A DNA stretch of 47,946 nt from Pseudomonadota bacterium. GTDB taxonomy: Bacteria > Pseudomonadota > Alphaproteobacteria > Caulobacterales > Hyphomonadaceae. Position numbers and translations under genes: made by a program. The stretch covers positions 1 to 47,946 of the forward strand of contig JAYZAM010000069.1 of NCBI GenBank assembly GCA_036339715.1, given 5' to 3'. Below, piece after piece: positions 28,816 through 47,946 of the stretch; the stretch's first letter is position 1; every line of letters starts with the position of its first letter. The notes under the pieces were generated by a model. That model did not search any database, was not told the origin of the DNA, and saw only the letters and a program-made list of their open reading frames with translations.

Positions 28816-29256
28816 ATGACGCAGATGACCATTGGTCGTTTATCGAAAGCGGCGGGCGTGAAAGTGACAACCATACGCTATTATGAATCGATTGATTTGA
28901 TGGGCGAGCCGGACCGAAGTTCGAGCGGCCAACGGCTATATGGCGATGAGGCCGTGCAGCGTTTGTCGTTCATACGGCATGCCCGTGATCTTGGTTTTCC
29001 GATGGAGGCCGTTCGTGAAATGATTGATCTGCAAACTCAGCCGGATCAGGATTGCACGGCCGTGGACGCGATAGCCCGTGAACAGCTTGCAGATGTGCGC
29101 AAACGCCTGACGCAGCTTGAAGCGCTTGAGGCGGAGCTCAAACGGATGATTACGTGCTGCGAGGGCGGCCGGGTTGACACGTGTCGGATCATTTCAACGC
29201 TCAATGATCATAGCGAATGCATCGCAGATGCGCATGAGCGGCTTTCGACCTTTTGA
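28816..29256 (+). CDS. MerR-family metal-responsive regulator (CadR/PbrR/ZntR-like)
   Basis: MTIGRLSKAAGVKVTTIRYYE, LSFIRHARDLGF, metal-binding Cys in DC and CCEGGRVDTC. Confidence 0.93.
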   Translation: MTQMTIGRLSKAAGVKVTTIRYYESIDLMGEPDRSSSGQRLYGDEAVQRLSFIRHARDLGFPMEAVREMIDLQTQPDQDCTAVDAIAREQLADVRKRLTQLEALEAELKRMITCCEGGRVDTCRIISTLNDHSECIADAHERLSTF

Positions 29257-29265
29257 GCAAACCGC

Positions 29266-29296
29266 TTGACCCTACAGTGACTGTAGATGGTAATTC
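29266..29296 (+). promoter_or_regulatory. MerR promoter-operator 2
   Basis: TTGACC-CTACAGTGACTGTAG-ATGG-TAATTC, 19-bp spacer. Confidence 0.85.
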
Positions 29297-29396
29297 TCTT
29301 CCATTATTGAAAGCACCTCCCGATAAATTTGGATGGGCGAGACTGAATGGAACAACGACAAAGCATACGTGTAGTCTCTCAATTGAGAGCATTGTC

Positions 29397-30260
29397 ATGA
29401 GCAAAACATCTACCTCCCCAACAGCAGGCTCCGACACTTCGCTCCCGTTTCGTTACCGGGTATCAGGAATGGATTGCGCGCGAGATGCTGCCGAAATCGA
29501 ACGGGCGGCTCAATCGGCTGGTGTCGCCCCAAAAGCCGTCAAAGTTTCGGCTGCGACACATATTATGACGCTATGGGTTTCAGAGTCCCAACTTCCAGAA
29601 ATCGAACTTGGCGTCGCCAAAACCGGTTACGGCTTCGAGAGAATTGCGCCAGGCGATGATGGCCCCGCCGCCTCACAAACCCAAAAGAATCCGGAGTATT
29701 TACGCGCCCTTTGGATCGTAATTTTCCTGAACGTTGGTTATGGAATTGTGGAAATGATCGCGGGTTTTTTCGCCGGTTCACAGGCGTTAAAAGCTGATGC
29801 GTTAGATTTTGTCGGTGATGGTCTCATTACATTCCTCGGCGTGCTCGCAATCGGCTGGAGTCTTGCCTGGCGCGCTCGTTCAGCCATGATTCAAGGCGTA
29901 TTCCTAGCTTTGCTTGGCTTCGGCGTACTCGCGAATACGGTGTGGCGTCTTCTTAATCAAACGATACCTGACGCTGCCCTGATGGGCATGTTCGGGCTCA
30001 TCGCGCTCGTCATAAATGTCATCGCCGTCTTACCGCTACTCCCTCACCGAAAAGGCGACGCTAATGTCCGCGCGGTTTGGTTGTTTTCACGTAATGACGC
30101 CATCGGGAACGCGGCCGTAATTGTGGCAGCAGGTTTGGTCGCCTGGCTCGGTCACGGTTGGCCCGATCTCGTGGTTGCAGTCGGGATCGCCGGGCTATTC
30201 CTGCATTCTGCATGGGCAATAATTCGCGATGCACGCAACGACCTCAGAGCCGCAATATGA
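29397..30260 (+). CDS. Cation diffusion facilitator with N-terminal HMA-like domain
   Basis: YRVSGMDCARDA, GSQALKADALDF, NVRAVWLFSRNDAIGN. Start placed at ATG 29397, downstream of the promoter. Confidence 0.88.
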   Translation: MSKTSTSPTAGSDTSLPFRYRVSGMDCARDAAEIERAAQSAGVAPKAVKVSAATHIMTLWVSESQLPEIELGVAKTGYGFERIAPGDDGPAASQTQKNPEYLRALWIVIFLNVGYGIVEMIAGFFAGSQALKADALDFVGDGLITFLGVLAIGWSLAWRARSAMIQGVFLALLGFGVLANTVWRLLNQTIPDAALMGMFGLIALVINVIAVLPLLPHRKGDANVRAVWLFSRNDAIGNAAVIVAAGLVAWLGHGWPDLVVAVGIAGLFLHSAWAIIRDARNDLRAAI

Positions 30261-30736
30261 CCATTCAGAAGATTGGATTCATCATTGGTCTGGGCGTTCT
30301 GGCGATAGATCAACTCACTAAAGCACTTATCCTCAATATTGATGCCCTGGATAACGGTGTGACGGTCCTTCCATTCTTCAACATTGTGCGGCTCAAGAAC
30401 AATGGTATCAGCTTTGGTCTTCTAGGCAGCCTGCCTCCCTGGCTCCTTACTCTAGCCGCTCTATCGATCGTCGCGGTTTTATTCTATTGGTTATGGCGCA
30501 CCGCTGATCGCCAGATCGCAACCGCACTCGGGCTGATTACAGGTGGAGCACTCGGAAACATAGTCGATCGCGTGCGACATGGAGCGGTGACCGATTTTTT
30601 AGATTTTCACATCAATAACTACCACTGGCCCGCGTTCAACTTCGCCGATAGCGCGATTGTCTGCGGTGTCGGCTTACTGTTGATCTCTGAGTTACTCACG
30701 AAGCCACGACGGACGGATAATGCTGAACAAAAATAG
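30257..30736 (+). CDS. lspA: Lipoprotein signal peptidase II
   Basis: DQLTK, NNGISFG, GALGNIVDR, VTDFL, FNFADSAI. ATGA overlap with the CDF stop. Confidence 0.93.
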   Translation: MTIQKIGFIIGLGVLAIDQLTKALILNIDALDNGVTVLPFFNIVRLKNNGISFGLLGSLPPWLLTLAALSIVAVLFYWLWRTADRQIATALGLITGGALGNIVDRVRHGAVTDFLDFHINNYHWPAFNFADSAIVCGVGLLLISELLTKPRRTDNAEQK

Positions 30737-30786
30737 CGGCTGATTAATCTGGCCCATGCTTAATAGTTGTCGATGTAAGAATTCGC

Positions 30787-30817
30787 TTGCCCCTACAGCC
30801 ACTGTAGGGGCTATAAA
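30787..30817 (+). promoter_or_regulatory. MerR promoter-operator 3
   Basis: TTGCCC-CTACAGCCACTGTAG-GGGC-TATAAA, 19-bp spacer. Confidence 0.85.
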
Positions 30818-30823
30818 ACCGAC

Positions 30824-31261
30824 ATGATCAAATTCGATTCACTTCGCGTTGGCCTCGCAATGGCCGCCTCAGCGCTCGTAGCAAGCTGCGCCAGCTTTGC
30901 CGATCCGCTCACTGAGACGCTACAACCGCTCGGGGCCTGGGCCAGCGGGACCGACGGTGACGCCTGTGAAACCGCTCCGATTACTTATTTTTCATCGGAT
31001 GGGGTCGTGCTTGTCCTCCTCAGCGCCAAAGGGCCGGTCCATGCGATTGGCAGTTGGGACCGCAACGGCGACGTGCTGGCCATGACGCATAATGACTTTC
31101 CGCTCGATCCCAGCGGGCAATCAAAACCCGCTGTTGAACTCAGTATTATGACATTGGACGCTGATAGATTTGTCACCCGAAATGCCAAGGGCGATATTCG
31201 GGAACGCATTAAATGCAGCGAGATTGCGATAAAGACGGGTCATGACACTGAGCCGCACTAA
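30824..31261 (+). CDS. Uncharacterised lipoprotein, 145 aa
   Basis: Lipobox LVASC, two further Cys, His-containing tail. Directly behind a MerR operator. Confidence 0.75.
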   Translation: MIKFDSLRVGLAMAASALVASCASFADPLTETLQPLGAWASGTDGDACETAPITYFSSDGVVLVLLSAKGPVHAIGSWDRNGDVLAMTHNDFPLDPSGQSKPAVELSIMTLDADRFVTRNAKGDIRERIKCSEIAIKTGHDTEPH

Positions 31262-31315
31262 ATAAATGAATAGATTTAATGATTTTGACAATGAAATTGG
31301 ATAGTCGTTGAGCGA

Positions 31316-31684
31316 ATGAAAATTGTAACCGTCATATGCACCGCCAGGTTTTGGCTTGCGCTCATGTTGAGCGTGACCCTTGGTATGGGTGCAACGGCGG
31401 CCGATATTCATCCTGTGGACGCTGAAGAGATTGCCTGTATGACCGCAGACGCTGAAGCGCATCATGCCGCCGAAATCGGTGACACTGAAAATGATGATAG
31501 TGAGCAGCGTCCGGCCCACAAACATCATACTCATAGCTGCGGGCCATGCCATTTGCATATGGTGGGTATGAACAGCCTGACCTTCTCTTACGCTTTATCA
31601 GCTACATCGGGGCTTCGCCCCGGCGCAGACCAGCACGTTCCGCGCGCTGGTCCTCACGGTCTTTATCGTCCTCCGCGTGCCTAA
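31316..31684 (+). CDS. CzcI/DUF2946-like exported His-rich leader protein
   Basis: Signal peptide, HKHHTHSCGPCHLH (CxxC), C-terminal LYRPPRA. First gene before the CBA system. Confidence 0.7.
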   Translation: MKIVTVICTARFWLALMLSVTLGMGATAADIHPVDAEEIACMTADAEAHHAAEIGDTENDDSEQRPAHKHHTHSCGPCHLHMVGMNSLTFSYALSATSGLRPGADQHVPRAGPHGLYRPPRA

Positions 31685-31758
31685 CCTGACTCTCTGAATC
31701 CGCGCCTTTTGCGCGTGGGTTTGATGTCGATTCAGGTTATCACAAGGAAGAATATCCC

Positions 31759-33051
31759 ATGCCAAAATTCAAACAGGGCGCACTCTGCGTCCTGATCGCG
31801 GCTGCCTTTGCAGGCACAGCGGTCGCGGCCCCGTGCAACGGGCCAACAGGCAGCGCGCCGACCATCGTGCCCGATGCGCCGCTAACCCTCACTATGGCGC
31901 TCATGCAAATCCGTCATGCGTCCCCGGATGTCCGCCGGGCCGCACTGGAGACGCGCGCCAGCGCAGCCGAAGCCGATCAGGCTGGGCGCCGTCTTAATCC
32001 GTCAATCGGACTGGAAATTGAAAACTTCTCAGGCACCGGACCGCTCAACGGGTTTGACCAAACCGAAACCACGCTCGCCATTGAGCAGACATTCCAGCTT
32101 GGAGGTAAAAGAGCCAAGCGCGAGCGTGCCGCGCGGGCGCGGGCAGCGCTCGCCGACGCTGAATGCCGCGTCAGATTAAGAGAGACCGAGCTAGAAGCAG
32201 CGCTGCTCTATCATGACCTGATCGCCGCGACAGAACTCGCAGCGCTGGCACGGGAGTCGGCGGATCTCGCCGTGTCTTTGGCTGAAACCGTTGCGAAACG
32301 TGTTGAGGCCGGCGCGGCCGCCCCGCCGGAGCGCTCGCGCGCCGAGGCAGATGCGGCTGCACTCAAAGCCGCCGCACTTGCCGCAGACGCTGAAATTGAT
32401 CAACGCCGCTATGAACTCGCCGCGCTTTGGGGAAGCTCAACGCCGGTTTTTGCGCCCCCGCGCGCCATATTGTCTGATGAAAGTGAAATACTCTCAAAGA
32501 CGCGCGGGCTTGACGAGCACCCGGCGCTCGCCGCGGCTAAAGCTGGAGCAACAGCCCGCGACGCTGAGCAGGACGCCGCCCGCGCGGCCGGTATTCCTGA
32601 TGTCACGGTTAGTGCGGGCGTTCGCCAATTTGAAGAGACCGGCGACAATGCGCTCCTGGTCGGGGTCACCGTGCCGATTCCGCTTTTTGACCGTAACCGC
32701 GACGCCGCTCGCGCAGCGGGTTATCGCGCCGATGCCGAACGTATCAGCGCCGTCGCCGTTGAGGCCAGATTGCGGTCGCAGCAACAGGCCGCCGCCGCGC
32801 GGGTGCGCGCCGCCGAGGCCCGGCTGACGCTACTCGAACAGGAGGCGCTACCTGCGGCCCGTTCCGCCTACGACGCATCTGTTGAAGGCTACGCGGCAGG
32901 CCGGTTTGACCTCACATCAACGCTCGATACCCGTAAAGGGCTGATCGAGGCAGGCGTCAGCGTAATTGACGCGCGGCGTACCCTTAATGCGGACCTCATG
33001 CGTCTCAAAAGCCTGATCGGTGCCGCCCCGTTTAATGGAGACTTCCAATGA
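31759..33051 (+). CDS. czcC: TolC-family outer-membrane factor (CzcC-like)
   Basis: EQTFQLGGKR, VTVPIPLFDRN, GYAAGRFDL. Confidence 0.9.
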   Translation: MPKFKQGALCVLIAAAFAGTAVAAPCNGPTGSAPTIVPDAPLTLTMALMQIRHASPDVRRAALETRASAAEADQAGRRLNPSIGLEIENFSGTGPLNGFDQTETTLAIEQTFQLGGKRAKRERAARARAALADAECRVRLRETELEAALLYHDLIAATELAALARESADLAVSLAETVAKRVEAGAAAPPERSRAEADAAALKAAALAADAEIDQRRYELAALWGSSTPVFAPPRAILSDESEILSKTRGLDEHPALAAAKAGATARDAEQDAARAAGIPDVTVSAGVRQFEETGDNALLVGVTVPIPLFDRNRDAARAAGYRADAERISAVAVEARLRSQQQAAAARVRAAEARLTLLEQEALPAARSAYDASVEGYAAGRFDLTSTLDTRKGLIEAGVSVIDARRTLNADLMRLKSLIGAAPFNGDFQ

Positions 33052-34382
33052 AACAGACACATATTTTGCCAACGACCATGATGGTTCTGGCCGTGATTTT
33101 GGCGGGATGCGGCAATGCAACCCCGGATACAAATCGGGTCGCTAGCGAAACCTCCGCCGCGACCGCTGATCACGCTGATCACGATGATCATGCCGAAGAA
33201 AAAGCGGATCACGATGACCATGGCGAGACCGATCAAGATGATGAGCATGACGATCATGCGGAAAGTGACGGCGAGCCTGACGGCCATGATGATCATAGTG
33301 AATCCGAAGGCGACGTTGTAAAACTAACCCAGGACGCGGCCACTGAGGCCGGTATTGAAACAGCAATTGTTGCAGAGGGGGCGATTGCGCAATCTCTCAG
33401 CCTTCCGGCCGAAATCCGCTTTGACGCTGATCGTGTTGCCAATGTCTCGCCCAAGGTCAGCGGCGTAATTGGCAAACTCTATGCGAGCGAAGGGGATCAC
33501 GTGGCACGCGGCGATACGCTGGCGCTGATCAAGAGCCGTGAACTCGCAGGTCTGAAAGCCGCTTGGCTCACGGCGGAAACGCGCAAAGCTCTGGCCAGTC
33601 AGGCGCTGGCCCGCGAGGAAAAACTGTTTGCGGACAAGATCACCTCGGAAGCCGATTTGCAAGCCGCGCGGGCGGAATTTGAAGCTGCGAAAGCCGATAG
33701 TGACGCGGCTGAAAATGAGCTCCATGCCGCAGGTGTCAGTCATGCCGCACTGGAGCGCATTTCCACGGCGGCTGACGGCGATAATGCCAATGCCTATCTG
33801 ACAGCGCCGATTGCCGGAACGGTGGTGCGCCGCACGGTCATGCTGGGCGAAACGGTCTCAGCCGGGGATGCCGGCGCTGATCCGCTGTTCACCCTTGTCG
33901 ACGATAGTGTCGTCTGGGCGGATATTGCCGTTTACAAACAGGACATCGCCCGCATTCGCGTCGGCGCTCCTGTCGCGCTAAAAACCGACAGCGGTGAAAT
34001 CCTTGCGCAGTCCACAATTGCCTTTGTCTTGCCGGTCATCAGCGAAACGTCACGCACCGCGACGGCCCGCGTGATCGTTGACAACCCGGATGGCACACTG
34101 CGACCTGGTCAGTATGTCACGGCCGATCTCAGTGTTGGCACATCTGAGCAGGTTTTGCGCGTACCGGAAGCAGCCATTCAATTGGTTGAAGACAGACCTT
34201 CCGTGTTCGTCCCTGTCGAGGGCGGCTATGCACCGCGCGCAGTGATGACAGGCACCAAATCCGGCGGGTTTGTGGAAATCCGCTCCGGCCTACTGGCGGG
34301 TGAGGCAGTCGTGACAGACGGTGCCTTCACCCTCAAAGCTCAACTCGAAAAAGACGCCTTTGGCGATGGCCACGGCCACTAG
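33048..34382 (+). CDS. czcB: RND periplasmic adaptor (CzcB-like) with His/Asp-rich N-terminal linker
   Basis: Lipobox LAGC, DHADHDDH... tract, APIAGTV, TSRTATARV, LRPGQYV. Confidence 0.92.
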   Translation: MKQTHILPTTMMVLAVILAGCGNATPDTNRVASETSAATADHADHDDHAEEKADHDDHGETDQDDEHDDHAESDGEPDGHDDHSESEGDVVKLTQDAATEAGIETAIVAEGAIAQSLSLPAEIRFDADRVANVSPKVSGVIGKLYASEGDHVARGDTLALIKSRELAGLKAAWLTAETRKALASQALAREEKLFADKITSEADLQAARAEFEAAKADSDAAENELHAAGVSHAALERISTAADGDNANAYLTAPIAGTVVRRTVMLGETVSAGDAGADPLFTLVDDSVVWADIAVYKQDIARIRVGAPVALKTDSGEILAQSTIAFVLPVISETSRTATARVIVDNPDGTLRPGQYVTADLSVGTSEQVLRVPEAAIQLVEDRPSVFVPVEGGYAPRAVMTGTKSGGFVEIRSGLLAGEAVVTDGAFTLKAQLEKDAFGDGHGH

Positions 34383-34392
34383 GACATTTGAT

Positions 34393-37300
34393 ATGATAAA
34401 TTTAATGCACCGTATCGCCGGAGGGCGGCTGCTCGCCGCCATCGCGGCGCTCGCCATGACCCTTGGCGGATTATTCGCGTTCAAGGCGCTACCCGTTGAC
34501 GCCTTTCCCGATGTGACACCCTCACTCGTTCAGGTCTTCACAGAAACCGAAGGCCTCGCCCCAGAAGAGGTGGAGCGCTACGTGACCTATCCAATCGAGA
34601 CCGCCATGTCCGGCTTGCCAAAGCTAGACCATATGCGCTCGGTCTCAAACTTTGGACTGTCCGTCGTTAACATCTATTTTGAAGACGGCACGGATGTCTA
34701 TTTTGCGCGCCAGGTTGTTGGTGAACGCCTCGCCGAAGCGCGCGGCAATATCCCCGATGGCTTTGGTGACCCGCAAATGGGGCCGATTTCAACAGGTCTA
34801 GGGATTATTCTCTATTTCCGTCTCGAAGATGAGACCGGCGCGCGCGATCTTGTAGAAATGCGCGAAATCCAGGACTGGATCATCAAATACCAGCTTCAGA
34901 CTGTGCCCGGCGTCACCGAAGTGCTGTCACTTGGCGGTTATGAAAAGCAGTATCAGGTCAGGCTCGATCCGGACGCGCTATTGGCTTACGACATCCAGAT
35001 TGGTGATGTGATGACCGCCCTTGAGCGCGGCAACAAGACCGAAGGCGCACAATTTCTCGAAATCGGGGCCGAGCAATATACGGTCCGCGGCGTCGGACTG
35101 GCGCGATCGGTTGAAGATCTTGCGGAAATTGTCGTCAATGTCGATGATGGCCGCCCCGTGCGGGTACGCGACCTCGGTGAAATCATTGTCGGCGGCGGGG
35201 TACGCCAGGGCCTGGCCACCGCCAATGGCGAAGGTGAAGTGGTCGCGGGACTGGTGCTCAAACTCTATGGCGCCAATACGTCCGATGTGATTGCGCGCGT
35301 TCAGACACGCTTTGAGGAAATCAACAAAAACCTGCCGGAAGGCGTCAACGCCGTGCCCTATTATGATCAGGGAACACTGGTCAACAAAGCTGCCGCCACG
35401 GTGACAACGGCGCTGTGGCAGGGCGCGCTACTCGTCGCACTGGTCGTTTTCGTCTTTCTGGGCGGCTGGCGTCCAAGCCTGGTTGTTGTCCTTTCTATTC
35501 CATTTTCCGTGGGCTTTGCCTTCATCGCGATGCAATGGCTCGGCATCAGTGCCAACCTCATGTCGCTGGGCGGCGTGGCCATTGCCATTGGCATGAGGGT
35601 GGATGGGGCTATCGTCATCGCAGAAAATGTCGACCGGGGATTCCGGGAAAGCGATCCGTCTGTCGATCAGAGAGATGTTGTGGCGCGCTCGGCTGCGGAA
35701 GTCATAGCGCCGCTAATTGCGGCCGTTGCGGTGGTGATCGTCGTCTTTCTGCCGCTTTTCTCGCTGCAAGGCGTGGAAGGTAAAACCTTCCGGCCTCTGG
35801 CAGCCTCCGCGGCGCTCGCCATGACGGGGTCATTGTTCTACGCCGCGCTGATTGCGCCATCGCTCGCAAATGGGGTCATGCGTCGGAGCAAAAAGCCGCG
35901 TGAGGACCGTCCGGGATGGATTGCCCGCACGGTCAGCCAAGCCGCCGGATTCTTCGTTCGCCAGCGTTTGGCGGCGATTGCTCTGGCCGCCATCCTCCTC
36001 GTAGCGGGCGGACTGGCCGGATCGCGCCTCGGGTCTGAATTTACTCCTTCGCTTGAAGAAGGTGATGTTCTACTCCGCGTGACCATGGCACCATCTATCT
36101 CTTTGACAGAAGCGGCGGAAACGACCACCCGCGTTGAGAAAAGGCTTCTGACGGCCTTTCCGGAAATCAAGTCTATCGTGACCCGAATCGGTCGCGGTGA
36201 GGTCGGGGCCCACGCCGACCCGACCAATAGTGCGGAAGCTTTTGTTGAACTCAATCCGAGGTCGGAGTGGCGCAAAGGCTTGTCGCCGGAGAACTTGCGC
36301 ACAGCGATATCGGAAAATCTCGAAGGTGTGCCCGGTATTGTCGTCAATATCGGTCAACCTATCGCGATGTCTGTTGATGAGCTTTTGACCGGGACGCGCG
36401 CAGAACTTGCCGTGAAAATTTTCGGGCCGGACAGTGATGTCCTGTTGAAAAAGTCACAAGAGCTACAGGCCATCTTGCAACAGGTCGATGGGGCAGCTGA
36501 AGTTCAGGCTGACCAGATTACAGGGGCGCCACAACTCGTGGTGCGTGTCGATCGCGCGGCCCTCGGGCGGTATGGTCTCGATGTTGAGGACGCGCTTGAC
36601 GCCTTGCGGACCTCGGTCGGCGGCGCAGAAGCCGGCGCTCTGTTTGAAGGCGTTCGGCAATTCCCGATCGTCGTGCGGTTTCATGAAGAGAGCCGCGATA
36701 CAGCCGAAGCCATCCGCCGTTTGGTGCTGGAATCGCCGACCGGCGCACGTGTCACGCTGGAAAGCGTGGCCACTATCGAGACCGTGATTGGTCCGCGCCA
36801 GATCACGCGAGAGGATGGCGAGCGCTTTATCACTGTCCAATCCAATGTGCGGGGCCGTGACATCGGGTCTTTTGTAACGGAGGCGCAAGCTCTGACGGAC
36901 GCCAATCTTGACCTGCCTGCAGGCTACCGCGTTGTCTGGGGCGGTCAGTTTGAATTGCAGCAACAGGCCAATGCTCGGTTCGCAGTTGTGATACCAATCA
37001 CGCTCGGCATTGTATTGCTGATCCTGCTACTGACATTCGGACGGCTTAAATCGGCAATTCTCATACTGCTGAACATCCCCCTGGCGTTAACCGGAGGCGC
37101 GCTCGCACTCTGGATTACAGGCCTGCCTGTCTCGGTTCCCGCGACGGTTGGTTTCATCGCGTTGTTTGGTATCGCACTTGGCAACGGGATGGTCCTGGTG
37201 AGCTTCATGGATGATTTCGCCCGCGCCGGGCGGGACCGGGATGCGCTCGCAATCGATGCGGCTGGGATGCGCGCCAGACCCGTTCTGATGACGGCGATGA

Positions 37301-37518
37301 CAACCGCTTTGGGACTTGCGCCCTTGCTGTTTGCGACTGGCGTCGGCGCCGAAGTACAGCGGCCTCTGGCAACTGTCGTCACAGGCGGGCTTGTCTCTTC
37401 AACTCTGCTGACGCTGCTCGTGATGCCGGCATTGCATCGGTGGTTCTCGCCAAAACCTGACTCGCATCATTCGCTACTGGAAACACGGCACAACCCCGAA
37501 ACTGTGCCAGCGGAATAA
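34393..37518 (+). CDS. czcA: Heavy-metal efflux RND permease (CusA/CzcA family)
   Basis: LPVDAFPDVT, ANLMSLGG, RARPVLMTA, GAEVQRPLATVVTGG. Start placed at ATG 34393. Confidence 0.93.
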   Translation: MINLMHRIAGGRLLAAIAALAMTLGGLFAFKALPVDAFPDVTPSLVQVFTETEGLAPEEVERYVTYPIETAMSGLPKLDHMRSVSNFGLSVVNIYFEDGTDVYFARQVVGERLAEARGNIPDGFGDPQMGPISTGLGIILYFRLEDETGARDLVEMREIQDWIIKYQLQTVPGVTEVLSLGGYEKQYQVRLDPDALLAYDIQIGDVMTALERGNKTEGAQFLEIGAEQYTVRGVGLARSVEDLAEIVVNVDDGRPVRVRDLGEIIVGGGVRQGLATANGEGEVVAGLVLKLYGANTSDVIARVQTRFEEINKNLPEGVNAVPYYDQGTLVNKAAATVTTALWQGALLVALVVFVFLGGWRPSLVVVLSIPFSVGFAFIAMQWLGISANLMSLGGVAIAIGMRVDGAIVIAENVDRGFRESDPSVDQRDVVARSAAEVIAPLIAAVAVVIVVFLPLFSLQGVEGKTFRPLAASAALAMTGSLFYAALIAPSLANGVMRRSKKPREDRPGWIARTVSQAAGFFVRQRLAAIALAAILLVAGGLAGSRLGSEFTPSLEEGDVLLRVTMAPSISLTEAAETTTRVEKRLLTAFPEIKSIVTRIGRGEVGAHADPTNSAEAFVELNPRSEWRKGLSPENLRTAISENLEGVPGIVVNIGQPIAMSVDELLTGTRAELAVKIFGPDSDVLLKKSQELQAILQQVDGAAEVQADQITGAPQLVVRVDRAALGRYGLDVEDALDALRTSVGGAEAGALFEGVRQFPIVVRFHEESRDTAEAIRRLVLESPTGARVTLESVATIETVIGPRQITREDGERFITVQSNVRGRDIGSFVTEAQALTDANLDLPAGYRVVWGGQFELQQQANARFAVVIPITLGIVLLILLLTFGRLKSAILILLNIPLALTGGALALWITGLPVSVPATVGFIALFGIALGNGMVLVSFMDDFARAGRDRDALAIDAAGMRARPVLMTAMTTALGLAPLLFATGVGAEVQRPLATVVTGGLVSSTLLTLLVMPALHRWFSPKPDSHHSLLETRHNPETVPAE

Positions 37519-37525
37519 ATCACTC

Positions 37526-37563
37526 CGCCTTGGCGGTGTAATCCGCCAAGGCGTCACTTTTTT
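37526..37563 (+). terminator. Terminator-like hairpin between the RND permease and the ATPase
   Basis: CGCCTTGGCGG-TGTAAT-CCGCCAAGGCG followed by TCACTTTTTT. Confidence 0.65.
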
Positions 37564-37573
37564 GGAGACGCTT

Positions 37574-39583
37574 ATGTCACCCCCGAAACACTCAAATCAT
37601 GATCATGACACTGACAGTCATGGTCATGACCATGGCGATGTCATTAGCCGTATAGTGGGCCCGCGCGCGGAAATCATCTTTGCCGGGCTAGCTGGACTTT
37701 GCCTGCTGGCAGGCTGGCTCGGACCCAAACTTGGGTTTCTACCGGACCCCATCGGATTTGGCTTCCTGCTCGCGGCTTACTTTTTCGGCGGTTATTTCGT
37801 GCTGCGTGAGGCCATGGGTAAAATACTCAAAGGCCAGTTTCAGATCGACTTTCTGATGCTGGTGGCTGCTACGGGCGCCGCCATTCTCGGCGAATGGGCG
37901 GAAGGTGCTTTTCTTCTCTTCCTGTTTGCCATTGGCCATGCCCTTGAAAACTATGCCATGGCCCGGGCGCGCAATGCGATTTCGGCTTTGTCGGATCTCA
38001 CTCCGGATGAGGCGCTTGTCCGTAGGGGTGAGACGACAGAAACCATTGCGATTGACGAGTTAGTTGTCGGCGATGTCGTTGTGGTGCGTTCCAATGAGCG
38101 CTTGCCAGCCGACGGATTTGTGGTCAGCGGACAAAGCGCCGTCAATCAGGCGCCCATTACAGGCGAAAGCGCGCCCGTAGACAAAAGACCCGTGGCTGAC
38201 CGCGAAAAGGCAGCTGCTAATCCTGACGCGCTGAAGGCCGAAAGCCGCGTGTTCGCGGGGTCAATCAATGGGTCCGGCAGTCTTGATATAGAAGTGACCA
38301 AATTGTCGGGCGAGACGACGCTGGCCCGCGTTGTCACCATGGTGAGCGAGGCTGAAACACGCCAGTCACCGACCCAGAGTTTTACCAAAAAGTTCGAGCG
38401 CATATTTGTGCCGTGCGTCATTGTTCTGGCGGTTGTTACGTCGCTGGCCTTCCTTGTTTTGGACGAGACGGGTTCCGAAAGCTTCTACCGAGCCATGGCT
38501 GTATTGGTGGCGGCAAGCCCCTGCGCGCTGGCCATTGCAACCCCAAGCGCCATTCTCTCCGGCGTGGCCCGCGCCGCGCGCGGCGGCGTGGTGATCAAGG
38601 GCGGCGCGCCGCTTGAGGCGCTCGGACGGCTCGACGCCATCGCCTTTGACAAAACAGGCACACTGACGGAGGGCGAGCCGCGCCTAGTGGATATTGTGCC
38701 TTTCGGCGATGTCGATGAAGACACTTTGCTCAGGGTTAGCGCCGCTGTTGAAACGCTGAGTGATCATCCGCTGGCCGAGGCCGTGGTGCGCGATGCGAAA
38801 AGGCGCCTCGGATCAATCCCCGACAGCGCAACCGATTTTACAAGCATAACCGGTCGCGGTGTTTCCGCCATGTATGATGGCCAGATTGTGCATATCGGCA
38901 AATCGGCCTTGTTTGATGAGGTGGACGGCAAGCCAGTGCCCGAGGACTTGGCAGAGCGCGTCAATTCGCTGTCGGCCGATGGCCGCACAACGATGATTGT
39001 GCGCCATGGTGAGCGCTATCTGGGCGTAATCGGTCTGATGGACACGCCGCGCGAGGCCGCGAAAAGCGTCATAGCGCGGCTGCGCGACATCGGTGTGACC
39101 CGCATGATGATGATTTCGGGCGATAATCAGAATGTGGCAGATGCTGTCGCGCGAGACGTTGGGCTGGACGAGGCCTTCGGCGATCTCATGCCCGATGACA
39201 AAGTCACCAAGATCAAATCGCTCAAGCAAGGCCGCGGCGTCGCTATGGTTGGGGACGGCGTCAATGATGCGCCTGCCATGGCTAATGCGACTGTCGGTAT
39301 TGCCATGGGAGCGGCGGGCTCAGACGTTGCGCTTGAGACCGCTGACATTGCCCTCATGGCTGATGATCTTGAAACGCTGCCATTTGCCGTCGGATTGAGC
39401 CGGGCGACCAGTCGCATTATCCGGCAAAATCTTTGGGCGAGCCTCGGCATCGTCGCCTTTCTTATTCCCGCGACGCTTTTCGGTCTCGGGATCGGGCCCG
39501 CTGTCCTCATTCACGAAGGTTCAACTTTGATCGTCGTGTTCAACGCTTTGCGACTACTTGCGTTCCAGGATCGCGAGCATTGA
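37574..39583 (+). CDS. P1B-4 heavy-metal ATPase (CzcP-like)
   Basis: SPC in AASPCAL, TGES, DKTGT, GDGVNDAP, HEGS in the last TM, His-rich N-terminus. Confidence 0.92.
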   Translation: MSPPKHSNHDHDTDSHGHDHGDVISRIVGPRAEIIFAGLAGLCLLAGWLGPKLGFLPDPIGFGFLLAAYFFGGYFVLREAMGKILKGQFQIDFLMLVAATGAAILGEWAEGAFLLFLFAIGHALENYAMARARNAISALSDLTPDEALVRRGETTETIAIDELVVGDVVVVRSNERLPADGFVVSGQSAVNQAPITGESAPVDKRPVADREKAAANPDALKAESRVFAGSINGSGSLDIEVTKLSGETTLARVVTMVSEAETRQSPTQSFTKKFERIFVPCVIVLAVVTSLAFLVLDETGSESFYRAMAVLVAASPCALAIATPSAILSGVARAARGGVVIKGGAPLEALGRLDAIAFDKTGTLTEGEPRLVDIVPFGDVDEDTLLRVSAAVETLSDHPLAEAVVRDAKRRLGSIPDSATDFTSITGRGVSAMYDGQIVHIGKSALFDEVDGKPVPEDLAERVNSLSADGRTTMIVRHGERYLGVIGLMDTPREAAKSVIARLRDIGVTRMMMISGDNQNVADAVARDVGLDEAFGDLMPDDKVTKIKSLKQGRGVAMVGDGVNDAPAMANATVGIAMGAAGSDVALETADIALMADDLETLPFAVGLSRATSRIIRQNLWASLGIVAFLIPATLFGLGIGPAVLIHEGSTLIVVFNALRLLAFQDREH

Positions 39584-39945: not shown

Positions 39946-40797
39946 TCATGCGGCACGCTGATTAAACCCCAGCTGTGCGCCGAGAAGTTCAACCAGATAG
40001 CCGCCATCCCGCAGCCCCTCCGCCTTTTTGATAATGTAGCGGATGGCGTCCCGCATGGTGCCGGTTTCATCGCTCCACTCGGCATCGACGGCCGCTTTGC
40101 CGTTGAGAACAATGGCGATTTCGCGCCGTGACATGCCAAGCTCAAGACAATCGAGGGCGACCAAACCGTCACGCAGGATTTGCGTGGTTTTGGTCCAGAG
40201 CGGCGCCTCGGGCACGCTGCCTTCCTCGATCAGGGCAAGTGCGGCTTTCTGCGCTTTCAGTTTGCGCTCATAGGCTTTGAGATCAGAGATGGTCAGTTTC
40301 ATCCGAACAGGTTCGAGCCCCAGAATCGAAACGCCGGTGCAGCGCACCTGCACGACGCAGCCCTTGCCGCGGATCAGAAGAAATTCGCGGGCCTGCAAAT
40401 CGGTAATGTGGGTGATTTGGCAAATTGGAACCGTGCTGTCCCAGATATCACAGCTTTCGCCCGGCGCCCGTGGTGAGCAGTTCACTTCCACCTGATCGGG
40501 AAACACATGCTTGTTCCAGACCGCATCGGCTTCAAACCCATTAAGGTCTGGATCGGGCATGAACATAAGGCCCCAGCGGTGAGCGAGGCGCTGCGGGTTG
40601 CGGGGCTTCAAGAGACGAATATCGGCGCAAGGCGCTTTCATTTCAGATACATCGTCGTCCGACCGCGCCTCTGCATCGCGTCTGAGGTCGGGATTGCGCC
40701 TTGCATATTCCCATGCCCAGCGATCAGGCGACAGGCGCGAAAGGTAATCGTAGCGCGCCAGGACGCCTTCCGAACTCAAGGTAAAAGTCTTCATCAT
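39946..40797 (-). CDS. FseA-like transcriptional activator (DUF6499 + DUF2285 in one frame)
   Basis: N-terminal RWAWEYARRNP matches the DUF6499 AWEFLRRN signature. C-terminal ALDCLELGMSRREIA...W...LRDGGY matches the DUF2285 pattern. Confidence 0.8.
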   Translation of the reverse strand: MMKTFTLSSEGVLARYDYLSRLSPDRWAWEYARRNPDLRRDAEARSDDDVSEMKAPCADIRLLKPRNPQRLAHRWGLMFMPDPDLNGFEADAVWNKHVFPDQVEVNCSPRAPGESCDIWDSTVPICQITHITDLQAREFLLIRGKGCVVQVRCTGVSILGLEPVRMKLTISDLKAYERKLKAQKAALALIEEGSVPEAPLWTKTTQILRDGLVALDCLELGMSRREIAIVLNGKAAVDAEWSDETGTMRDAIRYIIKKAEGLRDGGYLVELLGAQLGFNQRAA

Positions 40798-45162: not shown

Positions 45163-45861
45163 ATGAAACGCTTCCTTGCCTCCGCCCTCATTTGCGCCGC
45201 GCCGCTCTCCATCCTCATCGCCCCGCCAGCCGCCGCCCAATGGACGGTCTATGACCCGGCCAATCACATCCAGAACATCTACCAGGCGATCCGGTCGCTT
45301 CAGGCAGTGAACCAGCAAATCCAGCAGCTCACCCATGAAATCGAGATGCTGGAGAACATGGCGCGCGATCTGGAGGCGCTGCCCGATAGTATCGTCGACG
45401 ACATATTGCGCCGCATGCGCCGCATTGAGGAGCTGATGCGCGAGGCCGAAGGCATCGGCTACCGCGTCGAAGAAATCGAGCGCGAGTATGAAGAGGTCTA
45501 CCCGGAAGACTATGGCGCCGAACCGCCGCGTCAGGCCGTCCTCGTCGAAGAGGCCCGCGCCCGCTGGCGTCAGTCCCGCACGGCTTACCGGGACAGTCTG
45601 ACCGTCACGGCGCAGGTCGTCTCCACAGCGCGGGCTGACAGTGACAGTCTCGGCCGGCTGATCGCCGACAGCCAGTCCGCCGTCGGCAATCTCCAGGTCG
45701 CGCAGGCGGGAAACCAGATCGAGGCCCTGCAGACTGAGCAGCTGATGCAGATGGAAGCCATGATGGCCGCCCATTACCGCGCCGAGGCGCTGGAACGCGC
45801 GCGCCAGCTGGCCGAGGCCGAACGCGGCCGCGCCCGCACCCGGGCCTTCCTCGCAGAGTAG
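45163..45861 (+). CDS. trbJ: TrbJ (VirB5)
   Basis: Signal peptide, VYDPAN, SQSAVGNLQVAQAGNQ. Confidence 0.92.
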   Translation: MKRFLASALICAAPLSILIAPPAAAQWTVYDPANHIQNIYQAIRSLQAVNQQIQQLTHEIEMLENMARDLEALPDSIVDDILRRMRRIEELMREAEGIGYRVEEIEREYEEVYPEDYGAEPPRQAVLVEEARARWRQSRTAYRDSLTVTAQVVSTARADSDSLGRLIADSQSAVGNLQVAQAGNQIEALQTEQLMQMEAMMAAHYRAEALERARQLAEAERGRARTRAFLAE

Positions 45862-45867
45862 CGCCCC

Positions 45868-47184
45868 ATGGACGTGATCGACACATTTCTCGCGACCTTT
45901 ATCGCCTACATTGACAGCGGGTTCGGCCTGCTGGCGGGCGATGTCGCATACCTGTCGACCACGCTCATCGCTATCGACATTACGCTGGCAGGCCTGTTCT
46001 GGGCGCTCTCCCAGAACACGGACGTGATCGCCGGGCTCCTCAAGAAGGTGCTCTATGTCGGCTTCTTCGCCTTCATCATTGGCAATTTCTCTCTTCTCGC
46101 AGGGATCGTCTTTGACAGTTTCGCGGAGCTTGGCGTGACCGCTGGCGGCGGGACCATGACCGCCGATGATCTCCTGCGCCCCGGCTTCATCGCCAGTGTC
46201 GGTCTCGACGCCGGTCAGCCGCTCTTGGAAGAGATCAGCGACATGCTGGGGCCAATCTCCTTCTTCCATAACTTCATCATGATCGCGGTGATGTTCATCG
46301 CCTGGGCGATCATCATGGTCGCCTTCTTCGTGCTGGCCGTGCAGCTCTTCATCACGATCCTGGAGTTCAAGCTGACGACGCTCGCCGGGTTCGTGCTCGT
46401 GCCGTTTGCGCTCTGGAACAAGACGACGTTCCTGGCTGAACGCGTCCTCGGCAATGTCATCACCTCGGGCATCAAGCTGATGGTGCTTGCCGTCATTATT
46501 GGCATCGGCTCGACGCTCTTCTCATCCGTGACCGATGCGTTCCGTACCGGCGATGATGTGACGCTCGCGCAAGTCATGGGCACGGTGCTCGCCGCGATCG
46601 TCTTCTTCTGGATGGGCATCTTTGCGCCCGGCATCGCCTCCGGCCTGATCACCGGTGCGCCGCAACTCGGCGCGGGTTCCGCCGCAGGCGCGGCCGCCGG
46701 TGTCACAGCCGGAACCTATGTCGCCGGGATGGGCGGCCGCGCTGCCGTCGGCGCCGTCGCGGGCGGGGCGTCCTCCGCCGTCAAGGCCGGCGCCAGCATG
46801 GCCGGCGCGGCGCGCACTTCTTATACGCTGGGATCGGTCGCCTCTGGCGCATCCGGCGCAGCGGGCGTCGCCGCAGGCCTTGCCGGTGTCGCCCGTGCAG
46901 GCGGCGACGCTATGCGTCGCACAGCATCGCGCCCGGCTCAAGCCCTCAGAGACGCCTACCAACGCGGCAGTCAGGGCGCCTGGCGCGCCACCGGCGGGTC
47001 TGAGGCCGCGTCCATGCAAAACTCTGCCTCCGGATCATCATCAAGCCAAAGCCCCGGCTGGGCGCGGCGCATGCAGGCGAGCCAGCGCATGGGACAGGCA
47101 GGCCAGATGGCCGCGCACTCCCTGCGCGACGGTGATCGCGGCGCTTCGGGCGCAAACCCCACCCTCAGAGACAAGGACGACTAG
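45868..47184 (+). CDS. trbL: TrbL (VirB6)
   Basis: YIDSGFGLL, EFKLTTLAGFVLVPF, Gly/Ala-rich tail. Confidence 0.94.
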   Translation: MDVIDTFLATFIAYIDSGFGLLAGDVAYLSTTLIAIDITLAGLFWALSQNTDVIAGLLKKVLYVGFFAFIIGNFSLLAGIVFDSFAELGVTAGGGTMTADDLLRPGFIASVGLDAGQPLLEEISDMLGPISFFHNFIMIAVMFIAWAIIMVAFFVLAVQLFITILEFKLTTLAGFVLVPFALWNKTTFLAERVLGNVITSGIKLMVLAVIIGIGSTLFSSVTDAFRTGDDVTLAQVMGTVLAAIVFFWMGIFAPGIASGLITGAPQLGAGSAAGAAAGVTAGTYVAGMGGRAAVGAVAGGASSAVKAGASMAGAARTSYTLGSVASGASGAAGVAAGLAGVARAGGDAMRRTASRPAQALRDAYQRGSQGAWRATGGSEAASMQNSASGSSSSQSPGWARRMQASQRMGQAGQMAAHSLRDGDRGASGANPTLRDKDD

Positions 47185-47187
47185 ACG

Positions 47188-47388
47188 ATGGCTTTCAGGC
47201 GATCCTCCTCCAGCTATGGACCAAGCCCGTTTCCCGAAACGCCTTACCAGAAGGCGGGCCAGATCTGGGAGTTCGCAGCCGGTTTGCCGCAGGCAAAACA
47301 ATCCATCCGGGGGATGGATTGTAGGCGAAGAACGCCGCGGCAGCGGCCCGCAGGCTCCCGCTTCAACCCAACAAGACAGGAGGTCTGA
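47188..47388 (+). pseudogene. trbF': diverged duplicate of the first 27 trbF codons fused to a palindromic insert (66-aa ORF)
   Basis: MAFRRSSSSYGPSPFPETPYQKAGQIW here versus MAFKRSSSSYGRSPFPETPYQKAGQVW at 47392. Confidence 0.8.
47267..47359. repeat. Multi-hairpin palindromic (MITE/REP-like) element
   Basis: GGGAG...CTCCC closing stem enclosing TTTGCC-GCA-GGCAAA, ACAATCCATCC-GGG-GGATGGATTGT and GCCGC-GGCA-GCGGC. Confidence 0.6.
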
Positions 47389-47391
47389 TCT

Positions 47392-47946
47392 ATGGCGTTC
47401 AAGCGTTCATCTTCAAGCTACGGCCGCAGCCCGTTCCCCGAGACGCCATATCAGAAGGCCGGACAGGTCTGGGATGAAAGAATAGGCTCCGCCCGCGTGC
47501 AGGCGAAGAACTGGCGGCTCATGGCGCTCGGCTGTCTCGGGCTCTGCTTCGTCACCTCCGGCGCGCTGGTCTGGCGCTCGATGCAATCCACCGTCACGCC
47601 CTATGTGGTCGAAGTCGATGAGACGGGTGCGGCCCGCGCTGTGGCTCCGGCCACGACAAGCTACACGCCGACCGATGCCCAGATCGCCCATCACCTTGCG
47701 AACTTCATAGAACATGTCCGGGGGCTTTCCGTTGACCCTGTCGTCGTCCGCGAGAACTGGCTGCGCGCCTATGACTTCGTGACCGACCGCGCCGCCACCA
47801 CGCTCAACGAATACGCCTCCGCCAATGATCCTTTCGCCGATGTCGGGCGCAAATCCCGCACCGTGGACGTGGTCAGCGTGGTTCGCGTCTCGGAGGACAG
47901 CTTCCAGGCCCGCTGGATCGAGAAGACCTATGAGAATGGTGCGCTC
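47392..47946 (+). CDS. trbF: TrbF (VirB8-like), runs off the right edge
   Basis: Manual translation: ETPYQKAGQVWDERIGSARVQAKNWRLMA...PYVVEVD...DPVVVRENWLRAYDFVT. Has its own AGGAGG RBS. Confidence 0.93.
   Translation, partial: MAFKRSSSSYGRSPFPETPYQKAGQVWDERIGSARVQAKNWRLMALGCLGLCFVTSGALVWRSMQSTVTPYVVEVDETGAARAVAPATTSYTPTDAQIAHHLANFIEHVRGLSVDPVVVRENWLRAYDFVTDRAATTLNEYASANDPFADVGRKSRTVDVVSVVRVSEDSFQARWIEKTYENGAL

What the first reader, a model, noticed from the sequence alone, without database searches (positions are those of the whole stretch)
47188..47474. Synonymously recoded duplicate of the trbF 5' end
The 83-nt copies at 47188 and 47392 differ at 17 positions by my count: 13 codons change synonymously and only 3 of 27 residues change. 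This is not a fresh tandem duplication, and both copies evolved under protein-level constraint. Copy 1 follows trbL by 3 bp; copy 2 has its own AGGAGG. Options: (a) the scar of an element that targets trbF and brings a replacement gene start; (b) a junction between two ICE lineages; (c) a maintained leader or decoy peptide regulating trbFGI.
Basis: partly seen in the sequence, partly recalled or inferred. Interest (0 to 1): 0.75.

Follow-up and report, generated by a model that had tools for sequence, protein, structure and literature searches.

The report
Hairpin repeat cassette rescuing trbF start
A 77-base hairpin repeat landed in the start of a conjugation gene, and a second gene start behind it keeps the gene whole; the resulting 204-base cassette sits at the same base in several unrelated versions of this marine mobile element and likely hops between them by recombination.

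Summary
The 121 nt between the copies hold a 77-nt three-hairpin repeat of a dispersed alphaproteobacterial family (no Rfam match), a remnant of trbF's own continuation (R-I-G-S) and a ribosome-binding site. Copy 1 is the native trbF start of this ICE lineage; spacer plus copy 2 form a 204-nt cassette. The cassette sits at the same base in five ICE backbones that are not each other's closest relatives on either flank, mostly with an empty sister; 13 protein clusters show more variants. The repeat's fold is conserved (17 changes, no pair broken), its peptide is not. Best reading: in-frame repeat insertion, rescued by a second start, read through as a 66-codon decoy frame, and exchanged between ICEs by recombination in the trbF start. 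A lineage junction and a selected leader peptide are not supported; no larger parent element was found. The scan has noted hairpin repeats with duplicated gene starts in other genomes; spread of such a cassette between mobile elements is what is added here.

The parts
45868..47184 (+). trbL, upstream gene; stop TAG 3 nt before copy 1
   Evidence: NCBIfam PRK13875 above cut-off
47188..47270 (+). Copy 1: native trbF start of this ICE lineage (codons 1-27 and 2 nt), now the front of a decoy frame
   Evidence: 5 of 77 differences to empty allele L073, against at least 12 for copy 2 to any of 47 empty alleles
47188..47388 (+). 66-codon open frame through the repeat; stop TGA 3 nt before the second ATG (predicted translational coupling)
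   Evidence: 13 protein clusters of 65-71 aa
47271..47347 (+). 77-nt repeat: outer stem GTTC/GAAC (47271-47274 with 47330-47333) enclosing two hairpins (main one 47298-47322), then a third hairpin 47334-47347
   Evidence: fold z -3.84; family alignment and covariation
47347..47358 (+). Remnant of trbF's native continuation: R-I-G-S in L002 and L034 and in 9 of 14 variants, decayed to P-A-G-S here
   Evidence: profile score reached by 1.7e-5 of genome sites
47359..47391 (+). Linker with ribosome-binding site AGGAGG (47378-47383); origin not determined
   Evidence: resemblance to a trbL tail tested and not significant
47392..47474 (+). Copy 2: replacement trbF start carried with the cassette
   Evidence: first 34 nt identical in L001, L002, L057 while copy 1 of L001 and L002 differs at 11 of 34; four copy-2 lineages form one group, 91/86
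47392..47946 (+). Intact trbF (VirB8-like), cut by the contig end
   Evidence: NCBIfam PRK13872, 298 bits over cut-off 152; Pfam VirB8
47271..47474 (+). The 204-nt cassette (repeat, remnant, linker, copy 2) absent from empty alleles

Best explanation
A 204-nt cassette made of a three-hairpin repeat, a ribosome-binding site and a second trbF start sits at one fixed base of trbF in several unrelated ICE backbones, and likely moves between them by homologous recombination in the trbF start. Origin (inferred): the repeat inserted in frame at W-D/E-R-I-G-S of a trbF, and a second start with its own binding site then rebuilt a clean trbF behind it. Expression (predicted): ribosomes leaving trbL translate the 66-codon decoy frame through the hairpins and restart at the second ATG, so trbF and the genes after it stay expressed. 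Spread (inferred): both flanks of the spacer match the same 83 nt of an empty allele, so a crossover between co-resident ICEs can add or remove the cassette without breaking trbF. The fold, not the peptide, is conserved (shown by comparison); a role as an mRNA processing or stabilising signal inside the trb operon is the likeliest reason and is untested.
For: Repeat family: 23 aligned copies, 15 of 26 pairs with changes on both sides, above all 500 shuffles and all slid controls. It inserts in frame elsewhere with the same GA|GTTC junction (transposase core in L149). R-I-G-S remnant in frame right after the repeat. Same junction in L001, L002, L057, L034; L033 has the cassette but an assembly gap at its left end. 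Four-fold sites in trbE, trbL and trbF are 58-66% (L057), 49-52% (L002) and 30-35% (L034) identical to the window while the repeat is 100, 96 and 78%. The longest exact match over about 6.8 kb of the operon is the spacer in both closer pairs, 126 and 61 nt. Carriers pair with empty sisters: L105/L106 100/100, L107/L146 100/100, L060/L142 97/93. P0095 and P0096 are identical over 38 of 38 insert residues but 19 of 27 in the native part. Some empty sisters match copy 1 at the front and copy 2 further on, as a crossover inside the 83 nt predicts (L146, L106, L140). L034: 17 changes in 78 nt, 0 of 28 pairs broken, 1 of 100,000 random placements as good.
Against: Gain and loss cannot be told apart from unrooted trees; pop-out loss gives the same hybrid pattern. 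The hybrid pattern is noisy and absent in L057 against L108, where the empty allele matches copy 1 up to the junction, as a site-specific event would give. Identity between carriers begins only 5-8 nt left of the junction, short for RecA-type exchange. With 455 nt of trbF body alone a carrier clade was not rejected (p-AU 0.22). The linker does not score as a trbL tail, so how the second start arose is open. The all-open frame is only suggestive (about 2.9 stops expected, none seen, P about 0.06). No allele with the repeat in frame and no second start was found. No usable expression data. The structure tested was drawn after seeing both sequences, although RNAfold on the window alone gave nearly the same fold.
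Confidence: 0.58

Rival explanations
1. The cassette is a selfish, enzyme-less homing unit: a protein acting in trans recognises the fold, and a 204-nt circle or strand is inserted site-specifically at TGGGA of empty trbF alleles.
For: Identity blocks start 5-8 nt left of the junction in two pairs; L057 copy 1 matches empty L108 up to the junction; fold conserved with no peptide selection; the repeat's end bases pair in 36 of 42 copies.
Against: No enzyme gene lies next to the repeat in the carriers; no skipped or circular form among the contigs laid; hybrid empty alleles point to crossovers inside the 83 nt; only 4 of 94 trbF starts carry it.
Confidence: 0.2
2. The cassette was ancestral in this ICE group, is kept by strong selection as a regulatory RNA element, and was lost many times by recombination between the two copies.
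For: L034's cassette has drifted to its backbone's low G+C (49% against 61-63%), so it is old; fold conserved; hybrid empty alleles fit pop-out.
Against: It needs 126 identical non-coding nt and 34 identical nt of copy 2 across backbones with 50-65% identity at four-fold sites, while the same codons of native starts differ at 11 of 34; about 96% of trbF starts lack it.
Confidence: 0.12
3. The site is a junction between two ICE lineages.
For: Copy 2 and copy 1 belong to different allele groups; the short trbF-body tree alone did not reject a carrier clade.
Against: Both flanks of L002/L105 are sister to the same empty ICE; a carrier clade is rejected upstream and over 1.5 kb downstream.
Confidence: 0.04
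4. The 66-residue product is a maintained leader or decoy peptide that regulates trbF-G-I or poisons the secretion machine (option c).
For: Length and stop position are kept in 14 of 14 variants, 65-71 aa.
Against: Neutral ratio of changes in the repeat part; loss of the invariant glutamine in 4 of 14; the peptide ends before TrbF's membrane segment (sequence).
Confidence: 0.05
5. Assembly chimera.
For: The window ends a contig of a 57% complete genome; L033 shows an assembly gap at this site.
Against: Crossed by single contigs in three runs; present in named isolate records L056 and L057.
Confidence: 0.01

Closest known systems
Rickettsia palindromic elements (RPE) and other bacterial MITE-like repeats (review PMC2229807, passages read)
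   Same: Short structured repeat without an enzyme, found between genes and fused in frame into protein genes.
   Different: Different sequence and size (77 nt); here the in-frame allele was not found alone, the gene is rebuilt by a second start, and the whole cassette recurs across ICE backbones.
GTAG- and CGTC-tagged REPs and BIMEs (PMC3733652, passages read)
   Same: Dispersed palindromes, some intragenic, proposed to act in mRNA stabilisation.
   Different: No GTAG or CGTC tag in the consensus; 77 nt with a multi-branch fold, against 20-40 bp single hairpins; one to a few copies per genome; the paper's text does not mention Hyphomonas or Hirschia (supplements not read).
Caulobacter CIR repeats (as described in PMC2229807; the original paper was not held)
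   Same: Alphaproteobacterial repeat of about 100 nt with conserved stem-loops.
   Different: CIRs carry a GANTC site and two long arms; neither is in this repeat's consensus. Sequences were not compared directly.
Integrative elements that enter a gene and supply a new 5' end (SXT/R391 at prfC, recalled), and IMEs inserted in ICE transfer genes (PMC5704250, passages read)
   Same: Insertion in a conserved coding sequence; a replacement start keeps the gene intact; target is an ICE conjugation gene.
   Different: No integrase, no cargo, 204 nt only; no larger parent found; crossover appears to vary within the duplicated start.
Insertion with long target duplication (PMC2853133, search listing only)
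   Same: An insert flanked by a long direct repeat of the target.
   Different: The repeats here are 75-82% identical and come from different allele lineages, and the hairpin repeat lies inside the first copy, which runs on as R-I-G-S.
Tn4371-family ICEs (PMC2789088, passages read)
   Same: Host element has relaxase, coupling protein, ParB, ArdC and trbB-C-D-E-J-L-F.
   Different: Integrase and att sites were not identified in this window; that paper's text does not mention trbF.

Membership tests
RPE/MITE-like dispersed palindromic repeat (class) | Dispersed copies in unrelated loci | tested here: met
   51 copies in 49 loci examined; 4 of 150 other genomes of the class
RPE/MITE-like dispersed palindromic repeat (class) | Stable, covarying secondary structure | tested here: met
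RPE/MITE-like dispersed palindromic repeat (class) | In-frame fusion into protein genes | tested here: met
   L149 transposase core; R-I-G-S remnant in trbF
MITE in the strict sense | Terminal inverted repeats with target-site duplication and a cognate transposase | tested here: inconclusive
   Only a 4-bp terminal pairing (36 of 42 copies); no consistent duplication by eye; no cognate transposase looked for genome-wide
GTAG/CGTC REP | GTAG or CGTC tag next to a 20-40 bp hairpin | tested here: not met
   consensus; definition
CIR | Conserved GANTC site between two long arms | tested here: not met
   consensus; definition
Rfam families | Match at gathering score | tested here: not met
   window: only two chance hits, E over 1; 10 loci with the repeat: only tRNAs
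Site-specific integrative element with replacement gene start | Integrase gene or larger parent at the same site | tested here: not met
   9 of 9 loci from the pattern scans are 204/205 nt; scans need the same left end and are not exhaustive
Site-specific integrative element with replacement gene start | Excised circle or empty site in the same population | tested here: inconclusive
   no skipping joint from this ICE in 8 runs, contigs only
Site-specific integrative element with replacement gene start | RecA-independent integration | not testable with these tools
   needs mating experiments
Regulatory leader peptide | Peptide sequence under selection | tested here: not met
Tn4371-like ICE (host) | Relaxase, coupling protein and trb cluster | tested here: met
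Tn4371-like ICE (host) | Tyrosine integrase and att sites | not tested
   contig ends inside trbF; 16 of the window's longer frames scanned, none an integrase

The most novel reading that the evidence does not exclude
The 204-nt cassette is a minimal parasite of conjugative elements: a structured, gene-less unit that carries its own copy of the target's start, is recognised by a protein in trans, and homes into empty trbF alleles of co-resident ICEs across bacterial families while leaving conjugation intact.
Probability: 0.2. Interest if true: 0.8.

Novelty: new variant of a known kind. Interest (0 to 1): 0.5.

Why it matters
It shows how an insertion into an essential transfer gene can become a portable module: once the gene start is doubled, the insert is flanked on both sides by the most conserved stretch of the target and can be exchanged between ICEs without harm. 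It also points to an alphaproteobacterial repeat family, not found in Rfam or in my literature searches, whose fold is kept in place over long times; the carrier/empty ICE pair in one complete genome (L105, L106) makes its function and its spread directly testable.

Tried and rejected
Search for a fused full-length TrbF with the insert: none among longer proteins (weak by the tool's own note), none among 87 representative hits of which I read 32. Plasmid collection: 7 records, all plain trbF starts. Idea that the linker is a duplicated trbL tail: not significant. Idea that Q-I-W marks a target preference: 7 of 14 variants have Q-V-W. Idea that the patch extends into the trbF body: the empty sister L142 has the same bases, so they are native. 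Ribosome-site accessibility: folds differed among carriers, no consistent switch. Promoter and terminator scan: nothing on the + strand. RNA runs: scattered short contigs, possibly DNA, no common end; no conclusion. Linker hits in L132 and L134 are chance matches in coding DNA. Literature: searches gave no description of this arrangement or of the repeat; for I saw 20 of 135 listings, all unrelated; subscription papers are mostly not held. Paper PMC166474 was not held.

Full report
Observation. The two 83-nt stretches differ at 17 positions; 13 codons change synonymously and 3 change the residue. They lie after trbL in a trbB-C-D-E-J-L-F cluster of an ICE-like element with relaxase, coupling protein, ParB and ArdC. 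The contig ends inside trbF. Single contigs of three DNA runs cross the insert without a difference (these may include the source sample), and no joint skips it.

The spacer. The 121 nt fold well (z -3.84). Their first 77 nt match a dispersed repeat in other genomes of the family. In 23 aligned copies, 15 of 26 drawn pairs change on both sides, above all 500 shuffles and the slid controls; one helix was poorly aligned, 52% paired. Of 51 copies in 49 loci, which were picked by likeness to the window's copy, 13 abut a called tRNA 3' end, all in sense; six loci follow groEL, probably one old insertion. A model search found it in 4 of 150 other genomes of the class. In L149 it sits in frame in a transposase core with the same GA|GTTC left junction. 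Rfam has no match. In the four complete or partial host genomes with the cassette and in the window's own, a search with the L058 copy found no second close copy, so here it is ICE-borne. Right after the repeat, L002 and L034 read R-I-G-S, trbF's native continuation; 1.7e-5 of genome sites score as well, and 9 of 14 peptide variants keep it. The repeat therefore entered trbF in frame (inference). The remaining linker does not score as a trbL tail.

Distribution. Carriers: the window and six near-identical metagenome contigs (L059-L064), L002 (same DNA as the named record L056, counted once), L057 (Parvularcula lutaonensis), L034 (same as L058) and L033, which has an assembly gap at the left junction. 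That is 4 of 252 family genomes. In 394 genomes of the order, 4 of 94 trbF starts carry it, by my count of the table. The genome-wide pattern scan gave 2 hits and missed L034, so it is not exhaustive. A protein search gave 13 clusters of 65-71 aa with the same junction among 62 hits; DNA was not seen for ten of them. No larger insert and no fused full-length allele was found.

Which copy is which. Copy 1 matches the empty alleles of its own backbone: 5 of 77 differences to L073 for the window, 3 for L057; copy 2 is at least 12 from any of 47 empty alleles. Copy 2 of L001, L002, L057 and L033 forms one group (91/86, short alignment), and its first 34 nt are identical in three lineages whose copy 1 differs at up to 11 of 34. 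So spacer plus copy 2 is the unit.

Movement. Carriers are scattered on the trbL tree (44 rows) and on a tree of 1.5 kb downstream (25 rows, one duplicate or gapped locus dropped), three with starred empty sisters. One clade of carriers is rejected for trbL (p-AU 1e-7) and for the long downstream stretch (0.002), not for 455 nt alone (0.22). This rules out a lineage junction. Four-fold sites are 58-66, 49-52 and 30-35% identical in the three comparisons while the repeat is 100, 96 and 78%, and the spacer holds the longest exact match of the operon in both closer pairs, though a 95-nt run in trbL comes second in one. P0095 and P0096 share 38 of 38 insert residues behind different starts. Horizontal exchange explains this best. 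On the route, three of eight carrier/empty comparisons switch from copy-1-like to copy-2-like within the 83 nt, which fits recombination there (gain or loss); L057 against L108 does not switch, and identity begins only 5-8 nt left of the junction, which keeps a site-specific route alive.

What is selected. Between the window and L034 the repeat has 17 changes and none of 28 pairs is broken (3 compensated, 1 wobble); 1 of 100,000 random placements did as well (structure drawn by hand, nearly equal to the window's own predicted fold). L034's spacer has drifted to 49% G+C like its backbone, so these changes likely arose in place. The peptide is not selected. The frame is open to the second start in all 14 variants, against about 2.9 stops expected (P about 0.06); its stop lies 3 nt before, or just overlaps, the second ATG, the geometry of translational coupling (established knowledge). 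RNA runs gave no usable signal.

Comparison. It works like an RPE or REP-type intragenic repeat combined with the replacement-start trick of integrating elements (recalled for SXT at prfC; for IMEs in ICE genes), but it fails the tags of REP and CIR and has no integrase. My paper searches found no description; supplements were not read. Earlier notes of this scan describe hairpin repeats with duplicated gene starts in other genomes (unchecked), so the rescue pattern is not unique. The part added here is an old, diverged cassette that has spread among mobile elements of two bacterial families with its fold intact. Verdict: real, a new variant of a known kind, interest 0.5.

Noticed in passing
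L149:1350-1751 (-): The same repeat lies in frame inside a transposase core (rve) gene of another alphaproteobacterial family, adding about 19 residues, with the same left junction as in trbF.
   Followed up: partly
L041 and L124: The repeat interrupts IS6-like transposase genes (family by recalled sequence likeness), on the opposite strand in both.
   Followed up: no
L044, L054, L116, L121, L123, L126-L129, L148, L154, L156: The repeat starts directly after tRNA 3' ends in sense; the base before TTC and the base after GAA are complementary in 36 of 42 copies, a possible trace of its insertion mechanism.
   Followed up: partly
L025, L027, L029, L030, L046, L051: A copy overlaps the groEL stop codon in six species and is followed by a terminator-like hairpin; may be a domesticated 3' element.
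   Followed up: no
L034 (trbF copies): The last 35 nt of copy 1 and copy 2 differ at 1 base, and the R-I-G-S remnant is identical over 12 nt to the gene body, while the front parts differ at 13 of 42: looks like gene conversion across the repeat.
   Followed up: partly
L033:1234-1243: A 10-N scaffold gap at the cassette; the contig before it reads as an empty allele, so that sample may hold both forms, or the assembler joined two ICEs.
   Followed up: no
window 29253-39583: Metal-efflux cargo (cation diffusion facilitator, outer-membrane and fusion proteins, large efflux pump, P-type ATPase) lies between the divergent transfer regions of the element.
   Followed up: partly
window 45163-45868: No separate trbK frame of 40 aa or more lies between trbJ and trbL; the genes are 6 nt apart.
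   Followed up: no
window 39946-40797 (-): Regulator-like gene (RovC-type DNA-binding domain) divergent from trbB.
   Followed up: no
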